Source: a virus (taxonomy: Duplodnaviria > Caudoviricetes). Taken from it: a stretch of 64,000 nucleotides of DNA. The number at the start of each line of letters is the position of its first letter. Within the stretch, counting starts at the first letter, position 1. Under the pieces are notes generated by a model that was not told where the DNA came from, did no database searches, and saw only the letters and a list, made by a program, of their open reading frames with translations. Location: positions 32,001 to 96,000 of the IMG/VR virus record IMGVR_UViG_3300031994_000025. One strand, 5' to 3'. Of this stretch, positions 3,522-44,856 are shown piece after piece. A program made the translations under genes and the position numbers.

Positions 3522-4802
3522 TTAACTTTGCGGTTTCTTCGGCATTCCCTCATCCTCAGGTGGCTCTTTGCCATATTTCAGCCGGTATGACTCTGGATTG
3601 TGGCGGTGGTAATGGCCGCGAGTCCTATGGCCTCTTCTGATATTTGCCGCAATATTCGACGGAAGCATACCGTAAGCAATTCCGGCATCCTTGATGGACT
3701 TGAAGCTGCCGATGACACTACCGTCGTCGTCCAATATTTCGATAGGCATATTCGACATGCCGCGATAACTTAATCCTGCCTTTGATAGTATATGTATAAC
3801 AGTATTGTATGAACATTCTACATGGTTTGGAATCTCCTTTGGCATCATTCCCTGCTTTGCCAGCTCCACCACTTGCGGTTGAAGATTATTCCTCCTGTAA
3901 CCGCCAATGCCACCTGTTGTAGCCACGTTCAGTATCGTCCATCCCTCTTGCTTGTAACGTTCCAGCCACTCGCCCTCCATGCGCTGCGCCTCCTTTACTG
4001 GCAGAAATCCTGTAAGAGGCTTGAATACAGGCTCTATCCCCGTAGCATTGATGTGTTTTAACACAGCAGAATTACAGTCTTTCATGTGCTGTTTTTCCCG
4101 TTGGTCTGCGTTGCAGGTAAGCCCAACGTATGCCGAGCGGTCATTAAACTCGAATGCGTAAATCATCCTCCTTATCATGTTTCCCCTCGGCTCCATGTGT
4201 CCCAGTGCCTCGTCTATAAAAGCCTTGCCGCGAGTGGTGATAGCGTACAGTATTCTTGGTTCGTGATCCATCAACTCGCCTCTGTCATTATAATGGGATG
4301 CCCTCTCTATCAGGTAGTCTTTGTCGTAAGCCTTTGGTCTGGTGGGTGGGTAGAGCGTCTTCAATATGCCCAGTCTCTTCATGGCCTTAAAGTATGCCGT
4401 ATGGTGTATCCTCAACTGGTCTGCGTCCATGACAGGGTGTTCCCGCTTGAACTGTTCGCAGTCCTCGCGCGTCAGTTTATCAGGGCGGTTCAATCGGTCT
4501 GGATAAAGCTCGTCGATTATTCCCAGGCGCTGCATGGCGGTGTGATATCTATAGTGATGAAATCTCAAGTCTTCCCTCTTCATATCCGGGTGCTCCTGCT
4601 TGAATTGCTCACAGTCCTCGCGTGTCAGGTCGAAACTTCTTTTCTTCTCGTATGGGTACAATTCGTCGAAGATGCCGAGTCGTTTCATTGCTCGCACATA
4701 TCCTTTCTTCTGATGGATGTTCGCCCTGGTAATCTCGGGGTGTTCCCGCTTAAATTGCTCGCAGTCTTCGCGGGTCAGGTTTTTGTGAGTTTTTCTTTTC
4801 AT
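3522..4802 (-). CDS. GIY-YIG-like endonuclease with three N-terminal repeats and C-terminal NUMOD1-like DNA-binding domain
   Basis: MIY...YVGLT...R..QH...E...G..ILN pattern; LTREDCEQFKxEHP x3; FKSIKDAG...SNI; opposite strand and lower GC than neighbours. Confidence 0.7.
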   Translation of the reverse strand: MKRKTHKNLTREDCEQFKREHPEITRANIHQKKGYVRAMKRLGIFDELYPYEKKRSFDLTREDCEQFKQEHPDMKREDLRFHHYRYHTAMQRLGIIDELYPDRLNRPDKLTREDCEQFKREHPVMDADQLRIHHTAYFKAMKRLGILKTLYPPTRPKAYDKDYLIERASHYNDRGELMDHEPRILYAITTRGKAFIDEALGHMEPRGNMIRRMIYAFEFNDRSAYVGLTCNADQREKQHMKDCNSAVLKHINATGIEPVFKPLTGFLPVKEAQRMEGEWLERYKQEGWTILNVATTGGIGGYRRNNLQPQVVELAKQGMMPKEIPNHVECSYNTVIHILSKAGLSYRGMSNMPIEILDDDGSVIGSFKSIKDAGIAYGMLPSNIAANIRRGHRTRGHYHRHNPESYRLKYGKEPPEDEGMPKKPQS

Positions 4803-37932: not shown

Positions 37933-38223
37933 ATGGACGTAGGACAGGCAATAAAAAACCTTCGGATGAAGCAGGGCATGTCGCAGGCGGCGCTGGCCGA
38001 GAAGTGCGGCATGAGCACCAACGGCGTGAACCTGCTGGAGACGGGCAAGCGGTTCCCGCGTAAGAGTACGGTGGAGAAACTGTGCCAGGTATTCGGCATA
38101 CCTCAGTCGTACCTGATGCTGGCGACGATTGAGGAGAGTGACATCCCAGAGGAGAAGCGCGTGCTGTATAGGGTTCTTGTTGAGCCCCTGCGCGACGAAC
38201 TGTTAGAGGCGGGCGAACTGTGA
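37933..38223 (+). CDS. XRE-family HTH regulator
   Basis: IKNLR..QGMSQ..LAEKCGMS...V..LE.GKR.P....VEKLC..FGI. Confidence 0.9.
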   Translation: MDVGQAIKNLRMKQGMSQAALAEKCGMSTNGVNLLETGKRFPRKSTVEKLCQVFGIPQSYLMLATIEESDIPEEKRVLYRVLVEPLRDELLEAGEL

Positions 38224-41200
38224 ACGACAATAATCTGAAGATATTAGACCAGATTCCACTCGTGGACGTACTGGCAGGGTGGAGGCATACGGCGCAGCGG
38301 ACGAATGCGAAGGGCACCGTGGCCTACTACCTGTGTCCGTGGCACGATGACCATGATCCGTCGCTGGTGGTGGAGAGTAAGACACGCGACGGTGCGACGG
38401 CACCGATGTTCAAGTGCTACGTCTGCGGAGCCACGGGCTACGGGGCGGTGCAGTTGGCGGCACGGCTGATGGGCAAGCCTGGCGGGAGGATTCCCGACGA
38501 GGAGATGCCGGAGGTGCTGACCGAACTGGCGACGCGCTGCAGCGTGGAACTGGAGGAAGAGACGGATGCCGAGGGCAGACGCTGGCAGACCAGACTGCGC
38601 TCGGAGATTACGGGATGGAGTGAGTTCCGCAAGACGGAACTGCAGTATGCCGACTGGGACGGCATCACGCCGATACTGGAGCCGGGCGAGTGGACCATCG
38701 AGAGTCTGAAAGCCCTGGGGCTGAAGGTGGAGATGTCGTCCCATAAGGCTGGGAAGGATGAAGTTTCTGCCACTGCCCCCGCCGAAATCAAGACAGGCGA
38801 CGTGATTACCGACTTCGACCCGGACACGGGCGAGGCGCTCTACCGCTGCTCGTTCGGGGCAGGCTTCTACGGCGACCCGAAGAAGGCGGAGGTGAAGACC
38901 GTCAGCGAGTGGGGTAGGGAGGTGGAGCGGCTGTTCCATGTGCAGCCAGTCGCCCGCGTCATCCGCCGCAAGGAGAACAAGGAGCAAGGCGGCTACTTCG
39001 TGCATATCACGAAGGGCAGCAGGACTTACCCCATCTTCATGTTCCAATACGACTTCGGTACAAAGAAGTACGAGCCGAGGGATGTCTACGGCAACAAGTG
39101 GATATGGGTGGGCAAGGACGAGAATGTGGACGCTGGCCACCAGTGGTACGGCGACGCGACGCTGGAGGACTTCCTGAAGGACGGCGTGATGCCCGAGCAG
39201 GACAAGCGTCACCCCTATGTGGAGATTGATGACAAGGAGAAGAAGACCAAGCAGATCCGATTCGGCAAGATTGTATTGTGCTCTGGTCCGAGGGATGCGA
39301 TAGCGGTCTATAGTCACAGCGACGCGCATGTGGTATGGCTCAACTCCGAACAGGCTGGCTTCGATGCCAAGGGCGGTGCGATGCGCCCCAACCGTTGGCT
39401 GCGTGCGCTGCTCCGCAAGTTGCAGAGCGTCTGCGTGGAGGGCGGTCTTTACGTCTGCTACGACGAGGACGAGACGGGGCTGAAGGCCAGCCAGGCCATT
39501 GCACTCAACAATCCGCAGGTGCATTGGCTCAGGCTGCCCAAGGAGTTGGGGCAGGTTATGGCCGGGAAGACGATACAGACCCCACCCCTGACCCCTCCCC
39601 TTGAGGGGCGGGGAATGCCTACGGACGGGGGCACAGCCGATTCGGGCTCCCTTGAGGGGCAGGGAATGCCTACGGACGTGGGCATAGCCGATTCGGGTTC
39701 CCTTGAGGGACGGGGAATACCTACGGACGTGGGCACAGCCGATTCGGGTTCCCTTGAGGGACGTGGAATGCCTACGGACGGGGGCACAGCCGATTCGGGT
39801 TCCCTTGAGGGACAGGGAATGCCTACGGACGGGGGCACAGTCGATTCGGGTTCCCTTGAGGGACGGGGAATGCCTACGGATACCATGGCGGCAGCAACTC
39901 CCCGCCCCTTTGAGGGGAGGGGCAGGGGTGGGGTAAAGGCCCCGAAACCCCTGAAAGACGCCACCGACTTCGTGACCCGTTTTGCCGAGGTGGAGCGGCT
40001 GATGCCCGCCGACCTGCAGCACGACGACCCGGCGGAGTGGTTCGAGAATGCCATGTTCGATACGCCGACGTGTAAGTTCTGGCAGTGGGAGTCAGAGCGC
40101 AAGGAACAGGACGGCAGCAGCCGGGCCCGCTATAAGTTCGACCTGCGAAATACCCCCGTGTTCCTCCGTGCCCGTGGCATCGTCCGCCGCGTCATGCAGT
40201 CGGGCGACGAGTCGTTCAGCCGCTTCTTCATGCTGGGCAATGACCATACCTATTATGAACTGTTCGTCGGACAGAAAGGTTCCAACAAACTGGTGCCGCA
40301 GATTCGCGACATCATGGCCGAATGGCTCCGTGCTCACTCGGAGTTCAACGATAAGAAGGGTGCGCTCTCGCGTGCCATCTACTCCGCCAAACTGGAGACC
40401 GGCATCATGGAGTCGATAGAGACGATGGACTTCGACGAGAAATCGTTCGGCGAGGACTTCGACCATTTCTTCTTCCATAACACCGCCGTCCGTGTGACGA
40501 AGGACGAAATCAAACTGGTGCCTTACTCCACGATGAAACAGTGGACCAACCAGGACGCCATCCTCGAAGGCGACTTCCACATCACCGACCGACTGTGGCA
40601 CGTGGAGGAAATGCCATACTACCAGGCCGAACTGGCGAAGCACGAGGCGATACTCAAAGCGGCGCAGGTGGAAGACGAGATCAAACAGGAGAACATGCGC
40701 TGGGACCAGTACGAGCAGTTGTGGCACTACCGCCTCGTGATGGATCGACCGCTGGAGCAGATGCCGCTGCACTTCCGCTTCCTGTATAACACCTGCCGCA
40801 TCTTCTGGGAGAAGGAGAAAACACAGGAACTCACCAAGACCGAACGGCAGGTACAGGACATGTACTTTATTGCGATGCTCCATGCCATCGGCTCGGCGCT
40901 GGTGCGCTTCCGCTCGGCTAACCGCCAGCAATTCATCCACATCACCGACAACGGAACGCGCCGTGAGGATCTGGCCTCGGGCGGCACGGGCAAGACCGCC
41001 ATATTGGAACTCTTCGCCCTCGTGCGCCGTGTGCTGGGCATCGACGGCAAGGCCCTTGAAGGGTCGAACATCATCCTGGAGCAGGAACTCGGAAAGGTCA
41101 TCCCCGGTCTGCACAACATCGCCTGCATCGACGAACTGCCGCAGGGCTTCTCGCCGAAGAAGCTCTACAACCTGCCGCTCAGCGTCACCTCGCGAGGCAT

Positions 41201-42035
41201 GTACCGCGCCTCAGTGAAACTGACGGGCGACGACGTGCCGAAAATCGTCATCTCCTCGAACGAGCAGATAGACCTCTCCAGCGAATCGACCTCGCGCCGC
41301 GCCTATCAGATACTGGTGGGCGACTGGTACCATCCCCGCTCGATGGACGGTTCGCGGCCTGCCCACACGCCAGCCGACGATTTCCGCAGCGAGGGCGTGA
41401 AGGAGATAGCCCACAACCTGCCGCCGCAGATTCTGAACGACGCGAGAAATCTGCTGCTGCAGTGCTGTCAGTTGTTCCTGCAACTGCCGGAGGTGACGTT
41501 CACGCCGCCGCGTGACAGCCGAGCACTGCTGCGCCAGGCACTGGCAGCAAGCAAGGACGAGCAGTTCACGCGCTGGATAGCGGGCTATCTCTCCGACAAG
41601 CGCCACCTCGGCATCCCTATTGCCGAACGCGAACTGATCATCTCGCTGCTCGACTTCTGCGGCATTGAGGTCGGTGCGAAGACGCTGCTGTCGGGCCGCG
41701 CCCGCATCAAGAACAACCTCGACGAGTATCTGAGGACAAGTCCCTACGTGGCAAATCCCAACATTGTGATGCACTCTAATACGGATCATCAGTGCGGCTA
41801 CCGCCGCTGCGCCACCTGGCAGTACCCGATGAATCCCGACAAGACCATCAAGACCGACAAGGACGGCAACAGGCTCCCCCGCGAACTGGTGAAGAAGGCG
41901 CCGTACCTGAAGACCTACTACTTCTACCGCAAGGGGCAGGTGCCGTTCCACGACTTCGACCCTGCGCATATCGGAGACAAGGACTACGTGCAACCCGCAC
42001 CGGAGACAGACCCGGATGAAGTGAAAAGTGAATAA
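38220..42035 (+). CDS. primase-helicase (CHC2 zinc finger, TOPRIM, C-terminal ATPase) with in-frame repeat insertion
   Basis: CPWHDD..PS...FKCYVCG; CSGPRDA, YDEDETG, KD.TDF; GGTGKT and CIDE. Confidence 0.85.
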   Translation: MNDNNLKILDQIPLVDVLAGWRHTAQRTNAKGTVAYYLCPWHDDHDPSLVVESKTRDGATAPMFKCYVCGATGYGAVQLAARLMGKPGGRIPDEEMPEVLTELATRCSVELEEETDAEGRRWQTRLRSEITGWSEFRKTELQYADWDGITPILEPGEWTIESLKALGLKVEMSSHKAGKDEVSATAPAEIKTGDVITDFDPDTGEALYRCSFGAGFYGDPKKAEVKTVSEWGREVERLFHVQPVARVIRRKENKEQGGYFVHITKGSRTYPIFMFQYDFGTKKYEPRDVYGNKWIWVGKDENVDAGHQWYGDATLEDFLKDGVMPEQDKRHPYVEIDDKEKKTKQIRFGKIVLCSGPRDAIAVYSHSDAHVVWLNSEQAGFDAKGGAMRPNRWLRALLRKLQSVCVEGGLYVCYDEDETGLKASQAIALNNPQVHWLRLPKELGQVMAGKTIQTPPLTPPLEGRGMPTDGGTADSGSLEGQGMPTDVGIADSGSLEGRGIPTDVGTADSGSLEGRGMPTDGGTADSGSLEGQGMPTDGGTVDSGSLEGRGMPTDTMAAATPRPFEGRGRGGVKAPKPLKDATDFVTRFAEVERLMPADLQHDDPAEWFENAMFDTPTCKFWQWESERKEQDGSSRARYKFDLRNTPVFLRARGIVRRVMQSGDESFSRFFMLGNDHTYYELFVGQKGSNKLVPQIRDIMAEWLRAHSEFNDKKGALSRAIYSAKLETGIMESIETMDFDEKSFGEDFDHFFFHNTAVRVTKDEIKLVPYSTMKQWTNQDAILEGDFHITDRLWHVEEMPYYQAELAKHEAILKAAQVEDEIKQENMRWDQYEQLWHYRLVMDRPLEQMPLHFRFLYNTCRIFWEKEKTQELTKTERQVQDMYFIAMLHAIGSALVRFRSANRQQFIHITDNGTRREDLASGGTGKTAILELFALVRRVLGIDGKALEGSNIILEQELGKVIPGLHNIACIDELPQGFSPKKLYNLPLSVTSRGMYRASVKLTGDDVPKIVISSNEQIDLSSESTSRRAYQILVGDWYHPRSMDGSRPAHTPADDFRSEGVKEIAHNLPPQILNDARNLLLQCCQLFLQLPEVTFTPPRDSRALLRQALAASKDEQFTRWIAGYLSDKRHLGIPIAERELIISLLDFCGIEVGAKTLLSGRARIKNNLDEYLRTSPYVANPNIVMHSNTDHQCGYRRCATWQYPMNPDKTIKTDKDGNRLPRELVKKAPYLKTYYFYRKGQVPFHDFDPAHIGDKDYVQPAPETDPDEVKSE
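39578..39935. repeat. REP/BIME-like composite: about 5.5 tandem 51-bp units between inverted REP-like ends, in frame in the primase gene
   Basis: units start at 39598, 39649, 39700, 39751, 39802, 39853; peptide LEGRGMPTDGGTADSGS. Confidence 0.9.
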
Positions 42036-42484
42036 TGCCAGTATATAAGCGCCGACCACCGAAGGTCACCGTCATCAAGTACTCATGCGTCACGGGGCAG
42101 GCCGTATGGCTCTACCGAGGACAGAGCCATGAGGGTATGTACAAGGCATACTCGCGGGCACGGCGCCACGAACTGACGCTGCAGCGCAAATGGCCACGCC
42201 TAATGAAGCGACGCACGGAGAGCATCCTCGGCTTCCTCGACGAGTGCCTGGCTGCGCTTCCAATCATCGGTGAACTGGCCAAGGAACAGCGCGACGCCAT
42301 CAGGACGCTCCGTCAACTGGCTGGCAACGCCCCGAAGTTCTACACCGCCTTCTACAACCACGTGCGCACCGAGCGCCGACGGCGCAAGCGAGACAGCGAG
42401 ATACGCCAGAAGATGCGCGAACGCGAGGCGCAGGAACGAGCCGAAACGGAGGCACAGAAAAAAATAGCAGAATATGAATTATGA
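42035..42484 (+). CDS. basic hypothetical protein
   Basis: TAATG coupling with the primase gene. Confidence 0.65.
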   Translation: MPVYKRRPPKVTVIKYSCVTGQAVWLYRGQSHEGMYKAYSRARRHELTLQRKWPRLMKRRTESILGFLDECLAALPIIGELAKEQRDAIRTLRQLAGNAPKFYTAFYNHVRTERRRRKRDSEIRQKMREREAQERAETEAQKKIAEYEL

Positions 42485-42512
42485 TAAATAACGTATTGGT
42501 ACACAGCAATAT

Positions 42513-42746
42513 ATGAGCAAGAACGACAATATCAAGACCCAAGGCCAGGTGACGGAATCCCTCGGCTACGAGCGCTACCGTGTGACGCTTGACAACGGCG
42601 TCACCATCCTCGCCACACTCTCGGGGCGCATCCGCCAGAATCACATCCGCGTGATGACCGGCGACCGCGTGGAGGTGGAACTCTCGCCCTACGACCTGAC
42701 CCACGGGCGCATCTCATTCAGATACAACAAACCCAAACAACAGTAA
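42513..42746 (+). CDS. infA: translation initiation factor IF-1
   Basis: I...G.V.E.L....YRV.LDNG..ILA.LSGRIR...IRV..GDRVEVELSPYDLT.GRI.FR. Confidence 0.95.
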   Translation: MSKNDNIKTQGQVTESLGYERYRVTLDNGVTILATLSGRIRQNHIRVMTGDRVEVELSPYDLTHGRISFRYNKPKQQ

Positions 42747-42749
42747 GAT

Positions 42750-42893
42750 ATGAGCAGACAAGACTACATCCGACGCACACTGGCGGCCCTCTGCGGCTCG
42801 TCGCCCGCCGACCCCGCCACCTACCACCTCGTCCGTGGCATGGCCGACAGGCTGGAGAGTGTGTTCCGTTTCGACACTAACAGCGACAAATAA
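42750..42893 (+). CDS. 47-aa hypothetical protein
   Basis: read manually: MSRQDYIRR...TNSDK. Confidence 0.45.
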   Translation: MSRQDYIRRTLAALCGSSPADPATYHLVRGMADRLESVFRFDTNSDK

Positions 42894-42925
42894 ATGATTA
42901 ATTTAATCCAAAAACAACAGAAGTT

Positions 42926-43525
42926 ATGCAAGGCATTAAATTCAAGATGACGGGTGTGTGTCCGCTGATGCTGAACAACCCGCAGACGGTGAACCCGATG
43001 AACGAGTATTCAAAGGCGCTGAAGGAGCTGACCTCGAAGCGCTCGAAGACCGATGACGACCAGAACGAGATCTTCCACCTGAAGTTCCTGGCATCGTGCT
43101 ACTACAACACGAAGGGGCAGTACATCCTGCCGGCCAACATGATTGCCAAGAGCTTCGAGGCGGGGGCAAAGGAGAACAAGCTGGGTGCCAAGTTCCAGCG
43201 CTCGGTGTTCGTCTTCAACGACGGCGTGCTGAAGTTCGCAGAGAACGGTTGCTCGCCAGAGGAGCTGTGGACGAACCACAGCGAGAAGTACGTTGACATC
43301 CGGCCCGTGGGCATCATGAAGTCGAAGATTGTCACCGCCCGAATGATCATCCCCGAGTGGAGCCTGGAGGGTGAGCTTTTCTTCGACGAGAGCCAGTTGA
43401 ACAAGAGCGATGTGTGGCTGGCCATGACCAACGCCGGCCTGCGCTACGGCATCGGCACCTACCGCCAGTGCTACGGACGCTACAACATCGAAGAGGTGAA
43501 AGACGATGGGAAGAAAAGGAAATAA
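42926..43525 (+). CDS. stand-alone RAMP/Cas7-like RNA-binding protein
   Basis: first strand IKFKMTGVCPLMLNN, YILPANMIAKSF, W....EL.FD and C-terminal glycine-rich loop AG...GIGTYRQCYGRY. Confidence 0.7.
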   Translation: MQGIKFKMTGVCPLMLNNPQTVNPMNEYSKALKELTSKRSKTDDDQNEIFHLKFLASCYYNTKGQYILPANMIAKSFEAGAKENKLGAKFQRSVFVFNDGVLKFAENGCSPEELWTNHSEKYVDIRPVGIMKSKIVTARMIIPEWSLEGELFFDESQLNKSDVWLAMTNAGLRYGIGTYRQCYGRYNIEEVKDDGKKRK

Positions 43526-43531
43526 CAACAT

Positions 43532-43789
43532 ATCAAAGTACTGTCAAGTGCAGTGGGGTTTAGCTTAGCGCGGAACAGTACAGCGAAGACTGGTTTAGCG
43601 AAGCAAAGCAAAGTTTTATCCTAATCGAGCTTAATTCAGCCAAGAAGTGCGGAGTAAAGCCTTGTATAGCGCAGAGCAGCTTAGTAAAGCATAGCACGGT
43701 TACATCCCGACGTGGCAAAGCGGAGCGAAGCATACTAATGTATAGTTAGGCCCAGATGAGAGCGGTTGAGCGAAGCATAGTAAATTTTA
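43532..43789 (+). ncRNA. array of three 86-nt units with 5-nt periodicity (NN + AGY-like triplet); candidate guide RNAs
   Basis: ATC at 43532, 43618, 43704; 16 pentamers each; 43 of 48 triplets have central G. Confidence 0.8.
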
Positions 43790-43805
43790 AAAACATAGAC
43801 AGATT

Positions 43806-44030
43806 ATGACAAGAAAGAAGATCGATTACCCGAACCCCGTCGAGACCATCGACCGCAAGCCGCCGCAGGTGGCGCTCACCGAGCCCGTAGAGCCCGACAA
43901 GTTCGACCGACACATGCGCAAGGCCCGCCGCGACGACATCAGTTCGCGCCGCAAGGTCTTCGTCAGCCAGAGCCGCGCCGAGGACGAGCGCGACAGCCGC
44001 CGGCAGGACATCAGCCCGTCGGTTTATTAA
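43806..44030 (+). CDS. basic hypothetical protein
   Basis: 74-aa ORF following the array. Confidence 0.55.
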   Translation: MTRKKIDYPNPVETIDRKPPQVALTEPVEPDKFDRHMRKARRDDISSRRKVFVSQSRAEDERDSRRQDISPSVY

Positions 44031-44130
44031 ACACGGCGGTAGCCGCTCGGCATCCCGAAGGGTGACGCTTGCTACCAACGGGACGCAAGAAATTATTCAC
44101 TATTCACTTTTCACTATTCACTTAGAAAGT

Positions 44131-44856
44131 ATGAGACATTTGGATTTTACAATCGACTTTGAGACCTGCGGGTTGACGGCCAATTCCGCCCCGATGCAGG
44201 TGGCCATCGTTCCGTGGCGGCGCGATGCGGAGAGTGACCCGTTCGTGGGCGACGACACGGGCGAGAAGACGGAGGAAGAGGCCAGCCGATGGCCGGAGCC
44301 GCTGGTCAAGTATGTGGATCTGAGAACGTGCGTGGTCGATGGGTTCGACTTCGACCCAGAGACCGTGAAGTGGTGGACCGGGCGCACGGAGGCGGCGAAG
44401 CGCGCCGTGTGCGAGGGACTGGCTGAGCCGGTGGAGGACGTGCTGATCAGCATACTCGACTACCTGCGCGAGACCGTGAAGCAGTACCGGCTGGAGAGCA
44501 TCTGCCTCTGGTGCCAGGGCATGGACGTGGACATCGCCATCCTGCGCAACCTCTGCAAGAAGTACGACGTTGACTTGGAGAACGAAATCCCCCACACCTC
44601 GTTCCGCGACTGTCGCACGGTGATACTGGAGGCAGCGCTGACAGAAGCCGAGCGCAGCATGGCCGGTAAGAGCACGCGGGCCAACGGCATCGCCCTACCC
44701 TATCAGATACAGGCCGACCCGACGCTGGCCTACAAAATCTTCTTATCCCTACCCTCTCACTACGCCGAGGGCCGCGAGGCCCACGACGCCCTCTACGACG
44801 CGCTGCGCTCCACATGGTACACCTGGCAAGCACTGAAATCCCTAAACAATGAATGA
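44131..44856 (+). CDS. DEDDh 3'-5' exonuclease (DUF5051-like)
   Basis: IDFET, T..WW, W.QG...D..IL, RD.RT, HDALYDA. Confidence 0.85.
   Translation: MRHLDFTIDFETCGLTANSAPMQVAIVPWRRDAESDPFVGDDTGEKTEEEASRWPEPLVKYVDLRTCVVDGFDFDPETVKWWTGRTEAAKRAVCEGLAEPVEDVLISILDYLRETVKQYRLESICLWCQGMDVDIAILRNLCKKYDVDLENEIPHTSFRDCRTVILEAALTEAERSMAGKSTRANGIALPYQIQADPTLAYKIFLSLPSHYAEGREAHDALYDALRSTWYTWQALKSLNNE

What the first reader, a model, noticed from the sequence alone, without database searches (positions are those of the whole stretch)
42926..43789. Lone Cas7/RAMP-like gene plus three 86-nt pentamer-periodic RNA units: candidate non-CRISPR RNA-guided system with a gapped dinucleotide code
Seen: 6 nt after the stop of a 199-aa gene, the non-coding DNA falls into three units of 86 nt (ATC at 43532, 43618, 43704), each ATC + 16x(NN + triplet) + 3 nt. 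Of 48 triplets, 43 have a central G; 27 are AGY and 6 are GGY. The NN positions vary freely and differ between units. U1: AA AC CA GC GG TT TT GC AC AC GA CT TT GA AA AA. U2: CT CG TT TC CA AG GG AA CT AT GC GC TT AA AT AC. U3: CC GT AA GG GA AT AA AT TA CC TG GC TG GA AT AA. There are no CRISPR direct repeats and no other cas genes. Knowledge: the protein shows RAMP hallmarks (first beta strand with PL, an IP-like motif, C-terminal Gly-rich loop GIG.YR..YGRY), and Cas7 proteins polymerise along RNA with fixed periodicity. Inference: one protomer binds each constant triplet and presents the NN bases for target pairing, so the array encodes three guides. From memory this matches recently reported phage VIPR-type systems (GGY/NN repeats, target read with every third base skipped); I cannot verify that here. 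This copy would be an AGY-dominated Bacteroidales variant. With no nuclease alongside, silencing of competing phages or host genes is the likely output.
Basis: partly seen in the sequence, partly recalled or inferred. Interest (0 to 1): 0.97.

Follow-up and report, generated by a model that had tools for sequence, protein, structure and literature searches.

The report
Phage VIPR system with AGY repeats
This is a real RNA-guided "VIPR" silencing system in a 140-kb sheep-rumen phage, a kind first published in 2026, here with AGY instead of GGY handles, and one of its three guides matches a gene in mobile islands of rumen Prevotella bacteria.

Summary
ORF 42926-43525 is a sequence homologue of the characterised SUSP1 Vipr protein (E 1.3e-30; PDB 36pp E 1.7e-28). 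Its AlphaFold model has a Csm3/Cas7 fold.

The 264 nt after its stop hold three vrRNA units of NN+AGY pentamers. All 17 close relatives and 3 distant ones carry such arrays. Over 844 pentamers, NN carries about 0.1 bit, against A 88%, G 97% and Y 92% at the fixed positions.

The two SUSP1 residues that read G1 are changed here (H17 to N17, D177 to T178). The G2 and Y3 contacts are kept. This fits the GGY to AGY switch.

The 1-nt-skip code holds in this clade. First guides of two relatives match the window's own vipr gene (27/30 and 25/30, skipped base at the wobble position). Guide 3 belongs to a guide family whose gapped pattern hits 99 metagenome and 41 genome stretches. All 120 scored sites lie in one codon block, NGDINI(Y/F)PC.WE. 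The gene sits just upstream of a primase-helicase-like gene in Prevotellaceae islands.

Targets of guides 1 and 2 were not found. There is no structured 3' tail and no vap1 homologue. A conserved 62-74-aa gene follows the array.

VIPR and non-canonical repeat motifs are already published, so this is a new member with variant features.

The parts
42926..43525 (+). vipr gene: 199-aa minimal RAMP protein, homologue of SUSP1 Vipr
   Evidence: SUSP1 genome match E 1.3e-30, 32% identity. PDB 36pp 'SUSP1 Vipr protein' E 1.7e-28. phrog_4652 E 3e-42. AF2 pLDDT 91.3. Foldseek top hits are Csm3/Cmr4/type VII Cas7, E 3e-6. Residue mapping.
43388..43431 (+). Site inside vipr (codons 155-169, ESQLNKSDVWLAMTN) matched by the first guides of relatives L021 and L022 under the 1-nt-skip rule
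   Evidence: 27/30 and 25/30 NN bases match, and the skipped base is the codon's third position. The same guides match their own vipr alleles at only 21/30 and 20/30.
43526..43539 (+). Leader of the array; contains a separator-like ATATCAAAGT
   Evidence: Read directly from the sequence.
43540..43614 (+). vrRNA guide 1: 15 pentamers, NN = AC CA GC GG TT TT GC AC AC GA CT TT GA AA AA
   Evidence: No target found.
43614..43625 (+). Separator 1 (TTTTATCCTAAT); family consensus is TTAYATCCNAAC
   Evidence: Conserved between units in 17 relatives.
43626..43700 (+). vrRNA guide 2: 15 pentamers, NN = CG TT TC CA AG GG AA CT AT GC GC TT AA AT AC
   Evidence: No target found.
43700..43711 (+). Separator 2 (TTACATCCCGAC)
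43712..43784 (+). vrRNA guide 3: about 15 pentamers, NN = GT AA GG GA AT AA AT TA CC TG GC TG GA AT AA. It belongs to a guide family shared with L009, L013, L014, L015, L017 and L022
   Evidence: Family relation. Target is the codon block xNGDINI(Y/F)PC.WE of a roughly 145-aa gene in Prevotellaceae islands. Best matches are 27/30 in metagenome loci and 26/30 in named genomes.
43785..43805 (+). T/A-rich end of the array, running into the start codon of the next gene
   Evidence: Arrays of most relatives end in a T-run just before that ATG.
43806..44030 (+). g74: small basic protein, candidate accessory gene of this clade
   Evidence: It is the only gene besides vipr shared with all 17 relatives. 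Orthologues are 55-74 aa, with the motif LV..DKFDRHM.RAR..D..SRK.IF. The AF2 model shows one long helix at residues 32-68, pLDDT 77.6. No Pfam or PHROG hit.

Best explanation
This is a phage-encoded VIPR (Viral Interference Programmable Repeat) system in a 140,421-bp sheep-rumen phage. The vipr gene makes a minimal RAMP protein. The DNA after it is transcribed into an array of three roughly 86-nt vrRNAs. By homology with SUSP1 (inferred), Vipr protomers polymerise one per pentamer, sequester each A-G-Y triplet and present the NN dinucleotides. The filament then binds double-stranded DNA whose sequence reads NNxNNx..., skipping one target base per repeat, and blocks transcription. Shown here by computation: homology, fold, the family-wide NN/AGY architecture, the validity of the 1-nt-skip code, absence of self-targets, and the identity of one target. 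The handle differs from the published GGY. Position 1 is A, and the two SUSP1 residues that hydrogen-bond G1 are replaced (H17 to N17, D177 to T178), while the G2 and Y3 contacts are kept. Units are joined by an unstructured 12-nt separator instead of a pseudoknot tail, ribozyme or tRNA-like element. Processing is probably by host nucleases cutting the unprotected linker (inferred, weak). Guide 3 has the sequence of the coding strand, so it pairs with the template DNA strand, not the mRNA. It covers codons from about 23-25 to about 38 of a roughly 145-aa gene. That gene's stop overlaps the start of a primase-helicase-like gene in genomic islands of ruminant Prevotella/Xylanibacter. The likely output is silencing of the replication module of a host-resident mobile island during infection (inferred). 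Related phages aim their first guide at rival vipr alleles, including this phage's. Targets of guides 1 and 2 are unknown.
For: Homology to the experimentally characterised protein. Flanks of wV8 gp95, Medea1 and MakoManhole carry NNGGY arrays. RAMP fold. Arrays in all 17 close and 3 distant relatives. Pentamer logo over 844 pentamers: NN 0.12 and 0.06 bit, A 88%, G 97%, Y 92%. Residue mapping, with T178, R139 and R180 invariant and N17 and Y179 nearly invariant in 36 clade members; H17 plus an acidic residue at 177 goes with GGY in SUSP1, wV8, Medea1 and MakoManhole. The SUSP1 contacts are taken from 10.64898/2026.04.26.720927. Skip-rule test on DNA not chosen by pattern: hits at 80% or more of NN for skip 0/1/2/3 are 0/33/3/3, against 1/6/0/0 for shuffled guides. 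Against six phage genomes, skip 0/1/2 gave 0/14/1, against 1/1/4 for shuffles. Anti-vipr guides have the wobble-phase skip and lower matches to their own allele. No self-target in the 140-kb genome. The guide-3 family pattern has 21 specified bases. It gave 0 hits in IMG/VR, 99 stretches in metagenomes and 41 in species genomes. All 80 metagenome stretches fetched and all 40 genome sites scored are in frame in one gene, and the skipped positions vary (mean entropy 0.9 bit). The related guides L013 g3 and L014 g3, which overlap guide 3 with offsets of +9 and -6, hit the same site while shuffles give 0. Target context. A sheep-gut metatranscriptome holds exact contigs over vipr, array units 2-3 and g74.
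Against: No RNA ends, no protein-RNA binding and no repression were measured. The RNA-library contigs could be DNA carry-over. In SUSP1, GGY to AGY was among the handle substitutions tested, and perturbing the GGY motifs abolished silencing. This protein must therefore have a re-specified pocket, which is inferred only from two substitutions. Guide 3's best match is 27/30, and 21 of those positions were fixed by the search pattern. The size of the metagenome collection is not given, so the chance expectation (below 1) is my estimate. Guides 1 and 2 have no target in IMG/VR seeds or in 401 genomes of X. ruminicola's family. No vap1 homologue is present in the genome, and in SUSP1 vap1 enhances protection. 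The primase-helicase call for the downstream gene rests on Atlas look-alikes only. No integrase was seen near the target, so 'mobile island' is inferred from its variable contexts and multiple copies per genome.
Confidence: 0.88

Rival explanations
1. The system is a VIPR, but guide 3 serves as counter-defence. The targeted operon would belong to a host anti-phage island, whose cargo includes restriction-modification and HNH genes, and silencing it would disarm host immunity rather than stop a competing replicon.
For: The target cassette lies beside RM methylases, a MutH-like endonuclease plus Dcm methylase, HNH and ImmA/IrrE-type regulators. The upstream HIRAN protein weakly matches the PADLOC candidate PDC-M03B.
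Against: The three conserved genes (target, primase-helicase-like, DUF5675) match no PADLOC model. The gene directly coupled to the target looks like a replication protein. The cargo genes vary between loci and lie upstream on separate genes.
Confidence: 0.25
2. The array is a set of decoy or 'solo-like' vrRNAs that titrate or redirect the Vipr of rival phages rather than guiding the phage's own protein.
For: Satellites and phages with standalone vrRNAs that redirect VIPR are reported in 10.64898/2026.10.15.759431. Relatives clearly fight over vipr.
Against: The array directly follows an intact vipr gene in all 17 close relatives; in the distant relative L063 it lies directly upstream. Handle motif and pocket residues co-vary within the clade. 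Guide 3 has a coherent non-VIPR target.
Confidence: 0.05
3. The period-5 tract is a non-functional simple repeat, a protein-coding stretch or a DNA-level element (for example a binding-site array) with no RNA role.
For: No direct RNA-end data exist. A 57-aa ORF can be drawn on the minus strand.
Against: A period of 5 is incompatible with coding. The fixed positions are conserved and NN is hypervariable across 100 units in 18 loci. Guides match distant genes only under the gapped code. The protein partner is homologous to a solved RNA-binding filament protein.
Confidence: 0.02

Closest known systems
Type II VIPR of Escherichia phage SUSP1 and Felixounaviruses (bioRxiv 10.64898/2026.04.26.720920; structures in 10.64898/2026.04.26.720927; PDB 36pp)
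   Same: The Vipr protein is homologous (32% identity, E 1e-30), including K33, R39, K82, G87, R138/139 and R179/180. The vrRNA array lies directly downstream and is made of pentamers with a fixed triplet and variable NN. The 1-nt-skip code holds, with skips at wobble positions. Guides target rival vipr genes and a host-resident element. There is no self-targeting.
   Different: The handle is AGY, not GGY. G1-contact residues are N17/T178 instead of H17/D177, and Y179 replaces W178. There is no pseudoknot tail; a 12-nt unstructured separator joins the units and unit length is 5n+1. No upstream vrRNA and no vap1 homologue exist in the genome; a 62-74-aa single-helix protein follows the array instead. 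The likely host is Prevotellaceae, not Enterobacteria.
Non-canonical VIPR arrays: YNNNG/NNNGG/NNNNG repeats and 'staggered arrays' in 10.64898/2026.04.26.720920; GAC, CAC, WGT and TGH/NN clusters in 10.64898/2026.10.21.760802
   Same: Period-5 arrays with a trinucleotide other than GGY lie next to a Vipr-like fold. YNNAG fits the published 'YNNNG' class, and AGT fits 'WGT'.
   Different: The held texts name neither AGY nor Bacteroidota or rumen phages, and their supplements are not held. I therefore cannot tell whether this clade is one of the seven types. The pocket substitutions, separator and targets given here are not in those texts.
Cas7/Csm3 backbone subunits of class 1 CRISPR effectors
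   Same: RRM core, G-loop and thumb (Foldseek E 3e-6, TM about 0.5). Both polymerise along a guide RNA with periodic base flipping.
   Different: There is no CRISPR repeat-spacer array, no Cas5/Cas6/Cas10/large subunit and no adaptation genes. The period is 5 nt of RNA per 3 nt of target, instead of 6 per 6.

Membership tests
VIPR system | Vipr protein: a minimal single-RRM RAMP homologous to the published Vipr | tested here: met
   E 1.3e-30 to the SUSP1 gene. E 1.7e-28 to PDB 36pp. Csm3/Cas7 fold.
VIPR system | vrRNA made of tandem pentamers with a conserved trinucleotide alternating with hypervariable NN (9-16 repeats) | tested here: met
   15 pentamers per unit in the window and 9-20 in relatives. 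NN carries 0.06-0.12 bit against 0.66-1.74 bit for the triplet.
VIPR system | Canonical GGY trinucleotide | tested here: not met
   The triplet is A 88% / G 97% / Y 92%. The papers allow 'a related consensus' such as YNNNG.
VIPR system | Target read by the 1-nt-skip rule (NNx), typically with x at the codon wobble position | tested here: met
   Skip 1 gives 33 hits at 80% or more of NN, against 0-3 for skips 0, 2 and 3. In-frame targets. Computational only.
VIPR system | Structured, invariant 3' tail capping each vrRNA | tested here: not met
   Units fold no better than shuffles (z 0.79 and 0.07 for units 2 and 3; -1.8 for unit 1). Only a 12-nt linear separator is conserved. No Rfam family matches.
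VIPR system | Accessory vap gene next to vipr | tested here: inconclusive
   No vap1 homologue in the 140-kb genome by tblastn or a 4-sequence HMM. A different small gene (g74) is strictly linked in all 17 close relatives. Whether it is one of vap2-6 cannot be checked without the papers' data.
VIPR system | Vipr-vrRNA ribonucleoprotein that represses transcription of the target | not testable with these tools
   Needs pull-down, small-RNA-seq and reporter assays. An RNA library holds matching contigs only.
CRISPR-Cas (class 1) | Repeat-spacer array plus a multi-subunit Cas effector and adaptation genes | tested here: not met
   No cas families in ten flanking ORFs. The array has period 5 and no direct repeats of CRISPR size.

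The most novel reading that the evidence does not exclude
The AGY clade is a distinct VIPR subtype that differs from SUSP1 in four ways. Its handle pocket has been re-specified (N17/T178 reading A1), which would make it orthogonal to GGY systems. It needs no structured tail or ribozyme, because arrays are cut at a bare 12-nt linker. It uses a 62-74-aa single-helix protein in place of vap1. It travels as a three-part cassette between unrelated rumen phages (63-kb and 140-kb genomes). One widely shared guide family switches off the replication operon of a defence-gene-carrying island in Prevotellaceae. That would be RNA-guided silencing of a host-resident element in a major gut and rumen bacterial family.
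Probability: 0.3. Interest if true: 0.7.

Novelty: new member of a known kind. Interest (0 to 1): 0.5.

Why it matters
VIPR was described only in 2026 and has been tested experimentally in Enterobacteria and Pseudomonas systems. This locus adds four things.

- The same code operates in rumen Bacteroidota phages.
- A natural example links a change of handle base (G1 to A) to changes in the two residues that read that base. This is a direct lead for making orthogonal VIPR effectors.
- It gives a concrete, testable natural target: an island replication operon in cultured strains such as Xylanibacter ruminicola KHT3 and Ga6B6 and Prevotella sp. MA2016.
- Array processing differs between lineages: a bare linker here, and tRNA-like minihelices or a true tRNA in relatives.

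It does not open a new category.

Tried and rejected
**Database searches on the protein and its neighbours**
- Pfam on the protein gave nothing.
- A vap1 homologue was sought in the own genome by tblastn and by HMM; none was found.
- The upstream 149-aa ORF is not vap1. It is also unrelated to the ORF of the same size in L061.
- PADLOC on the target cassette gave no system, only a weak HIRAN match.
- Pfam and PHROGs on the target protein gave nothing usable. The Atlas had no hit for it.

**Target searches**
- The window's three guides against the own genome under skips 0-3 gave only null-level scores of 18-20/30. The sole exceptions were the guides matching their own array at skip 3.
- The same guides against five related phage genomes gave nothing at 22/30 or above.
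- IMG/VR exact seeds were run for the guide-3 core, guide-2 NN8-15 and NN1-8, and guide-1 NN1-8 and NN6-13. They gave 0 hits or chance-level extensions, with a maximum of 23/30.
- Guides 1 and 2 with up to 3 mismatches were not found in the 401 genomes searched from the family of X. ruminicola.
- Guides 1 and 2 have no homologous guides in the relatives.

**RNA and structure**
- ARAGORN found no tRNA in the window. Rfam on 42700-44200 gave only a sub-threshold chance hit.
- The sigma-70 and terminator scans were uninformative.
- In the RNA runs, the flanks 42400-42655 and 44128-44300 had no cover while the cassette had some. With contigs only, this is no evidence of a transcript boundary.
- The g74 model is a single helix, so no fold search was made.

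Full report
**1. Observation**

The 199-aa ORF (42926-43525, + strand) ends 6 nt before a tract with strict 5-nt periodicity. G autocorrelation is 0.45 at lag 5. The probability of 43 or more G in 48 at the genome's G content is 2e-19. No other run of at least 5 such pentamers exists on either strand of the 140,421-bp genome. The window is positions 32001-96000 of an IMG/VR virus record that CheckV rates 100% complete.

**2. What the protein is**

Pfam is silent, and PHROGs gives phrog_4652, of unknown function. tblastn against phage genomes finds 130 records, mostly Felixounavirus and relatives, at about 31% identity and E 3e-27.

VIPR systems are described in bioRxiv 10.64898/2026.04.26.720920. 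They consist of a minimal RAMP protein (Vipr), usually an accessory vap gene, and vrRNAs of 9-16 YNNGG repeats. Their NN dinucleotides read DNA while skipping one base per repeat. The model phage is SUSP1.

- The window protein matches the SUSP1 genome at E 1.3e-30.
- It matches PDB entry 36pp, 'SUSP1 Vipr protein', at E 1.7e-28 over residues 4-193.
- The flanks of wV8 gp95 and of the homologues in Pseudomonas phage Medea1 and Gordonia phage MakoManhole carry obvious NNGGY arrays.
- An AlphaFold2 model built on 36 clade members has pLDDT 91.3. Its best PDB matches are Csm3, Cmr4 and type VII Cas7 (E 3e-6, TM 0.4-0.57).

**3. The array across relatives**

Seventeen IMG/VR relatives have proteins 84-89% identical to the window's. 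All carry an NN+AGY array that starts at the vipr stop codon; in L015 one ORF is inserted between the two.

- Units are separated by a conserved 12-nt string, about TTAYATCCNAAC.
- Unit length is almost always 5n+1 (56-111 nt).
- Arrays hold 3 to 9 units and end in a T-run that abuts the ATG of a small gene.
- Over 844 pentamers the two N positions carry 0.12 and 0.06 bit. Positions 3-5 are A 88%, G 97% and Y 92%.
- Some guides are shared between arrays in mosaic fashion.
- The window's units have no fold better than shuffles, no Rfam match and no tRNA. They therefore lack the pseudoknot tail of the SUSP1 clade.

Three more distant members (54-65% identity) also use AGY. In L061 and L062 the units are interspersed with tRNA-like minihelices. 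In L063 the array lies upstream of vipr and begins right after a genuine tRNA-Arg.

**4. Handle and pocket co-vary**

The cryo-EM paper assigns G1 recognition to H17 and D177, G2 to R138 and W178, and the pyrimidine pocket to E71, M72, C173, T175 and R179. Aligning SUSP1 Vipr with the window protein gives the mapping below.

| SUSP1 residue | Role in SUSP1 | Window residue |
|---|---|---|
| H17 | G1 contact | N17 |
| D177 | G1 contact | T178 |
| R138 | G2 contact | R139 |
| W178 | G2 contact | Y179 |
| M72 | Y3 pocket | M72 |
| R179 | Y3 pocket | R180 |
| K33, R39, K82, G87 | DNA-contact residues | unchanged |

In 36 clade members T178, R139 and R180 are invariant, and N17 and Y179 are nearly so. 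The GGY-type homologues SUSP1, wV8, MakoManhole and Medea1 keep H17 and an acidic residue at position 177. So only the base that changed (G1 to A) has changed contacts. The paper tested GGY to AGY among its handle substitutions in SUSP1 and states that perturbing the GGY motifs abolished silencing. The re-specified pocket is an inference from these substitutions, not a measurement.

**5. Does the gapped code apply here?**

I took 81 regular guides from the 18 arrays. I scanned the window's whole genome, and then the relatives' loci with their arrays masked, using 0-3 skipped bases and shuffled NN order as controls.

- Hits at 80% or more of NN were 0/33/3/3 for skips 0/1/2/3 in the loci, against 1/6/0/0 for shuffles.
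- The skip-1 hits come chiefly from the first guides of L021 and L022. These match the vipr gene itself at window 43388-43431 (codons 155-169) with 27/30 and 25/30 bases.
- The skipped base is the third codon position.
- These guides match all 16 other alleles, but their own alleles at only 21/30 and 20/30.
- A further first guide (L017) hits the 3' part of vipr in three genomes.

This test did not use DNA selected by the pattern. It reproduces two published traits: wobble-phase skips and VIPR-against-VIPR targeting.

**6. The window's own guides**

None of the three has a match above null in its own genome (18-20/30), as published for other VIPRs.

Guide 3 belongs to a family also present in L009, L013, L014, L015, L017 and L022. 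A pattern built from the family's shared NN has 21 specified bases. It gave 0 hits in IMG/VR, 99 stretches in JGI and other metagenome contigs, and 41 stretches in GTDB species genomes.

- All 80 metagenome stretches fetched and all 40 genome sites scored lie in one gene, at one place and in frame. The peptide is xNGDINI(Y/F)PC.WE.
- The skipped positions vary, with mean entropy 0.9 bit.
- The window's guide scores up to 27/30. It reaches 24/30 or more in 45 of 80 metagenome loci and 27 of 40 genome loci.
- Guide variants track target alleles: TA, TT or TG at the Y/F codon, and GC or CC at the A/P codon.
- The related guides L013 g3 and L014 g3, offset by +9 and -6 nt, hit the same block in 25 and 32 loci, while shuffles give 0.

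The guide has the sequence of the coding strand, so it can pair with the template DNA strand but not with the mRNA. This fits DNA targeting.

**7. What the target is**

The target is a 140-157-aa protein with no Pfam, PHROG or PADLOC match. The guide site starts at codons 23-25.

- Its stop overlaps the start of a 734-832-aa gene. That gene's Atlas look-alikes are VirE/BT4734-like_N plus DUF3987 proteins of Bacteroidota elements and viruses (feature score 0.99, structural TM 0.5-0.6). I read it as primase-helicase-like.
- A DUF5675 gene follows it.
- Upstream cargo varies between loci. It includes RM methylases, a MutH-like endonuclease plus Dcm methylase, HNH, HIRAN and ImmA/IrrE-type regulators. 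An HU-HIG gene lies at one edge.

Carriers are almost all ruminant Prevotella, Xylanibacter and other Prevotellaceae. They include the isolates X. ruminicola KHT3 and Ga6B6, Prevotella sp. MA2016 (two copies), MN60, HUN156 and P5-50.

I read this as the replication module of a host-resident mobile island, analogous to the satellite targeted by SUSP1. No integrase was seen, so this is an inference. A counter-defence reading is kept as a rival.

**8. Guides 1 and 2**

Neither has a homologous guide in the relatives. IMG/VR seeds gave no target above chance. Neither was found within 3 mismatches in the 401 genomes searched from X. ruminicola's family. Their targets remain unknown.

**9. Cassette and accessory gene**

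Only vipr and the 74-aa gene after the array (43806-44030) are shared with the 17 close relatives; the other flanking genes are not. One relative is a complete 63-kb phage with terminal repeats. The cassette therefore moves between different phages.

- vap1 homologues follow the arrays of L061 and L062, but none exists in the window's genome.
- The small gene's orthologues (55-74 aa) share the motif LV..DKFDRHM.RAR..D..SRK.IF.
- Its model is one long helix.
- Its role as an accessory protein is a guess based on linkage alone.

**10. Expression**

A sheep-gut metatranscriptome holds exact contigs on vipr, on array positions 43590-43797 and on the small gene. These are assembled contigs at low depth, and DNA carry-over is not excluded.

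**11. Novelty**

The kind is published. Non-GGY motifs are mentioned in two papers: YNNNG, and WGT/NN among others. The held texts name neither AGY, nor Bacteroidota, nor tRNA-like separators, and the supplements are not held. I file this as a new member of a known kind with variant features. Those features are the AGY handle with matching pocket changes, the bare 12-nt separator, the absence of vap1 and the Prevotellaceae island target.

Noticed in passing
L061:3838-3890 and 3954-4000; L062:3685-3730; L248 about 1380-1425, 2715-2760 and 2880-2925: tRNA-like minihelices (6-7-bp acceptor-like stem plus T-arm with a UUCGAUU or UUCGACU loop) sit between or after vrRNA units. They occur in two AGT-type relatives and in the GGY-type Gordonia phage MakoManhole. 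ARAGORN and Rfam do not call those in L061 and L062 (L248 was read by eye only). The held VIPR papers do not mention tRNA or RNase. This suggests RNase P/Z processing of those arrays.
   Followed up: partly
L063:2517-2589: A genuine tRNA-Arg(CCU) lies directly in front of an NN/AGC array that sits upstream, not downstream, of vipr in a 65%-identical relative.
   Followed up: partly
window 44044-44124: Depth is very high in sheep-gut DNA and RNA runs (up to about 16,700 against about 12 on the flanks). Positions 44090-44123 are a TTCAC-rich low-complexity run just before the likely ATG (44131) of the DEDD exonuclease gene. The GTG start at 44062 listed for that ORF is probably wrong.
   Followed up: partly
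window 42513-42746: The phage encodes an IF-1-like protein of 77 aa (PF01176 E 7e-23; phrog_30201).
   Followed up: no
window 38220-42035: A 1271-aa protein has only a weak CHC2 zinc-finger/primase match at its N-terminus.
   Followed up: no
L015:4577-4905: In one relative an extra ORF is inserted between vipr and the array. It ends with a duplicated copy of the vipr 3' end (…KIEEIKSK).
   Followed up: no
L176:8446-13124; L246:975-13253; L247:1415-13499: The target island has a conserved core: a 93-aa gene (in L246 and L247; not called in L176), the target gene, a primase-helicase-like gene and a DUF5675-like gene. Its upstream cargo varies and is defence-like (RM, HNH, HIRAN, ImmA/IrrE). It occurs in multiple copies in some Prevotella genomes, and no integrase was seen within 10 kb.
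   Followed up: partly
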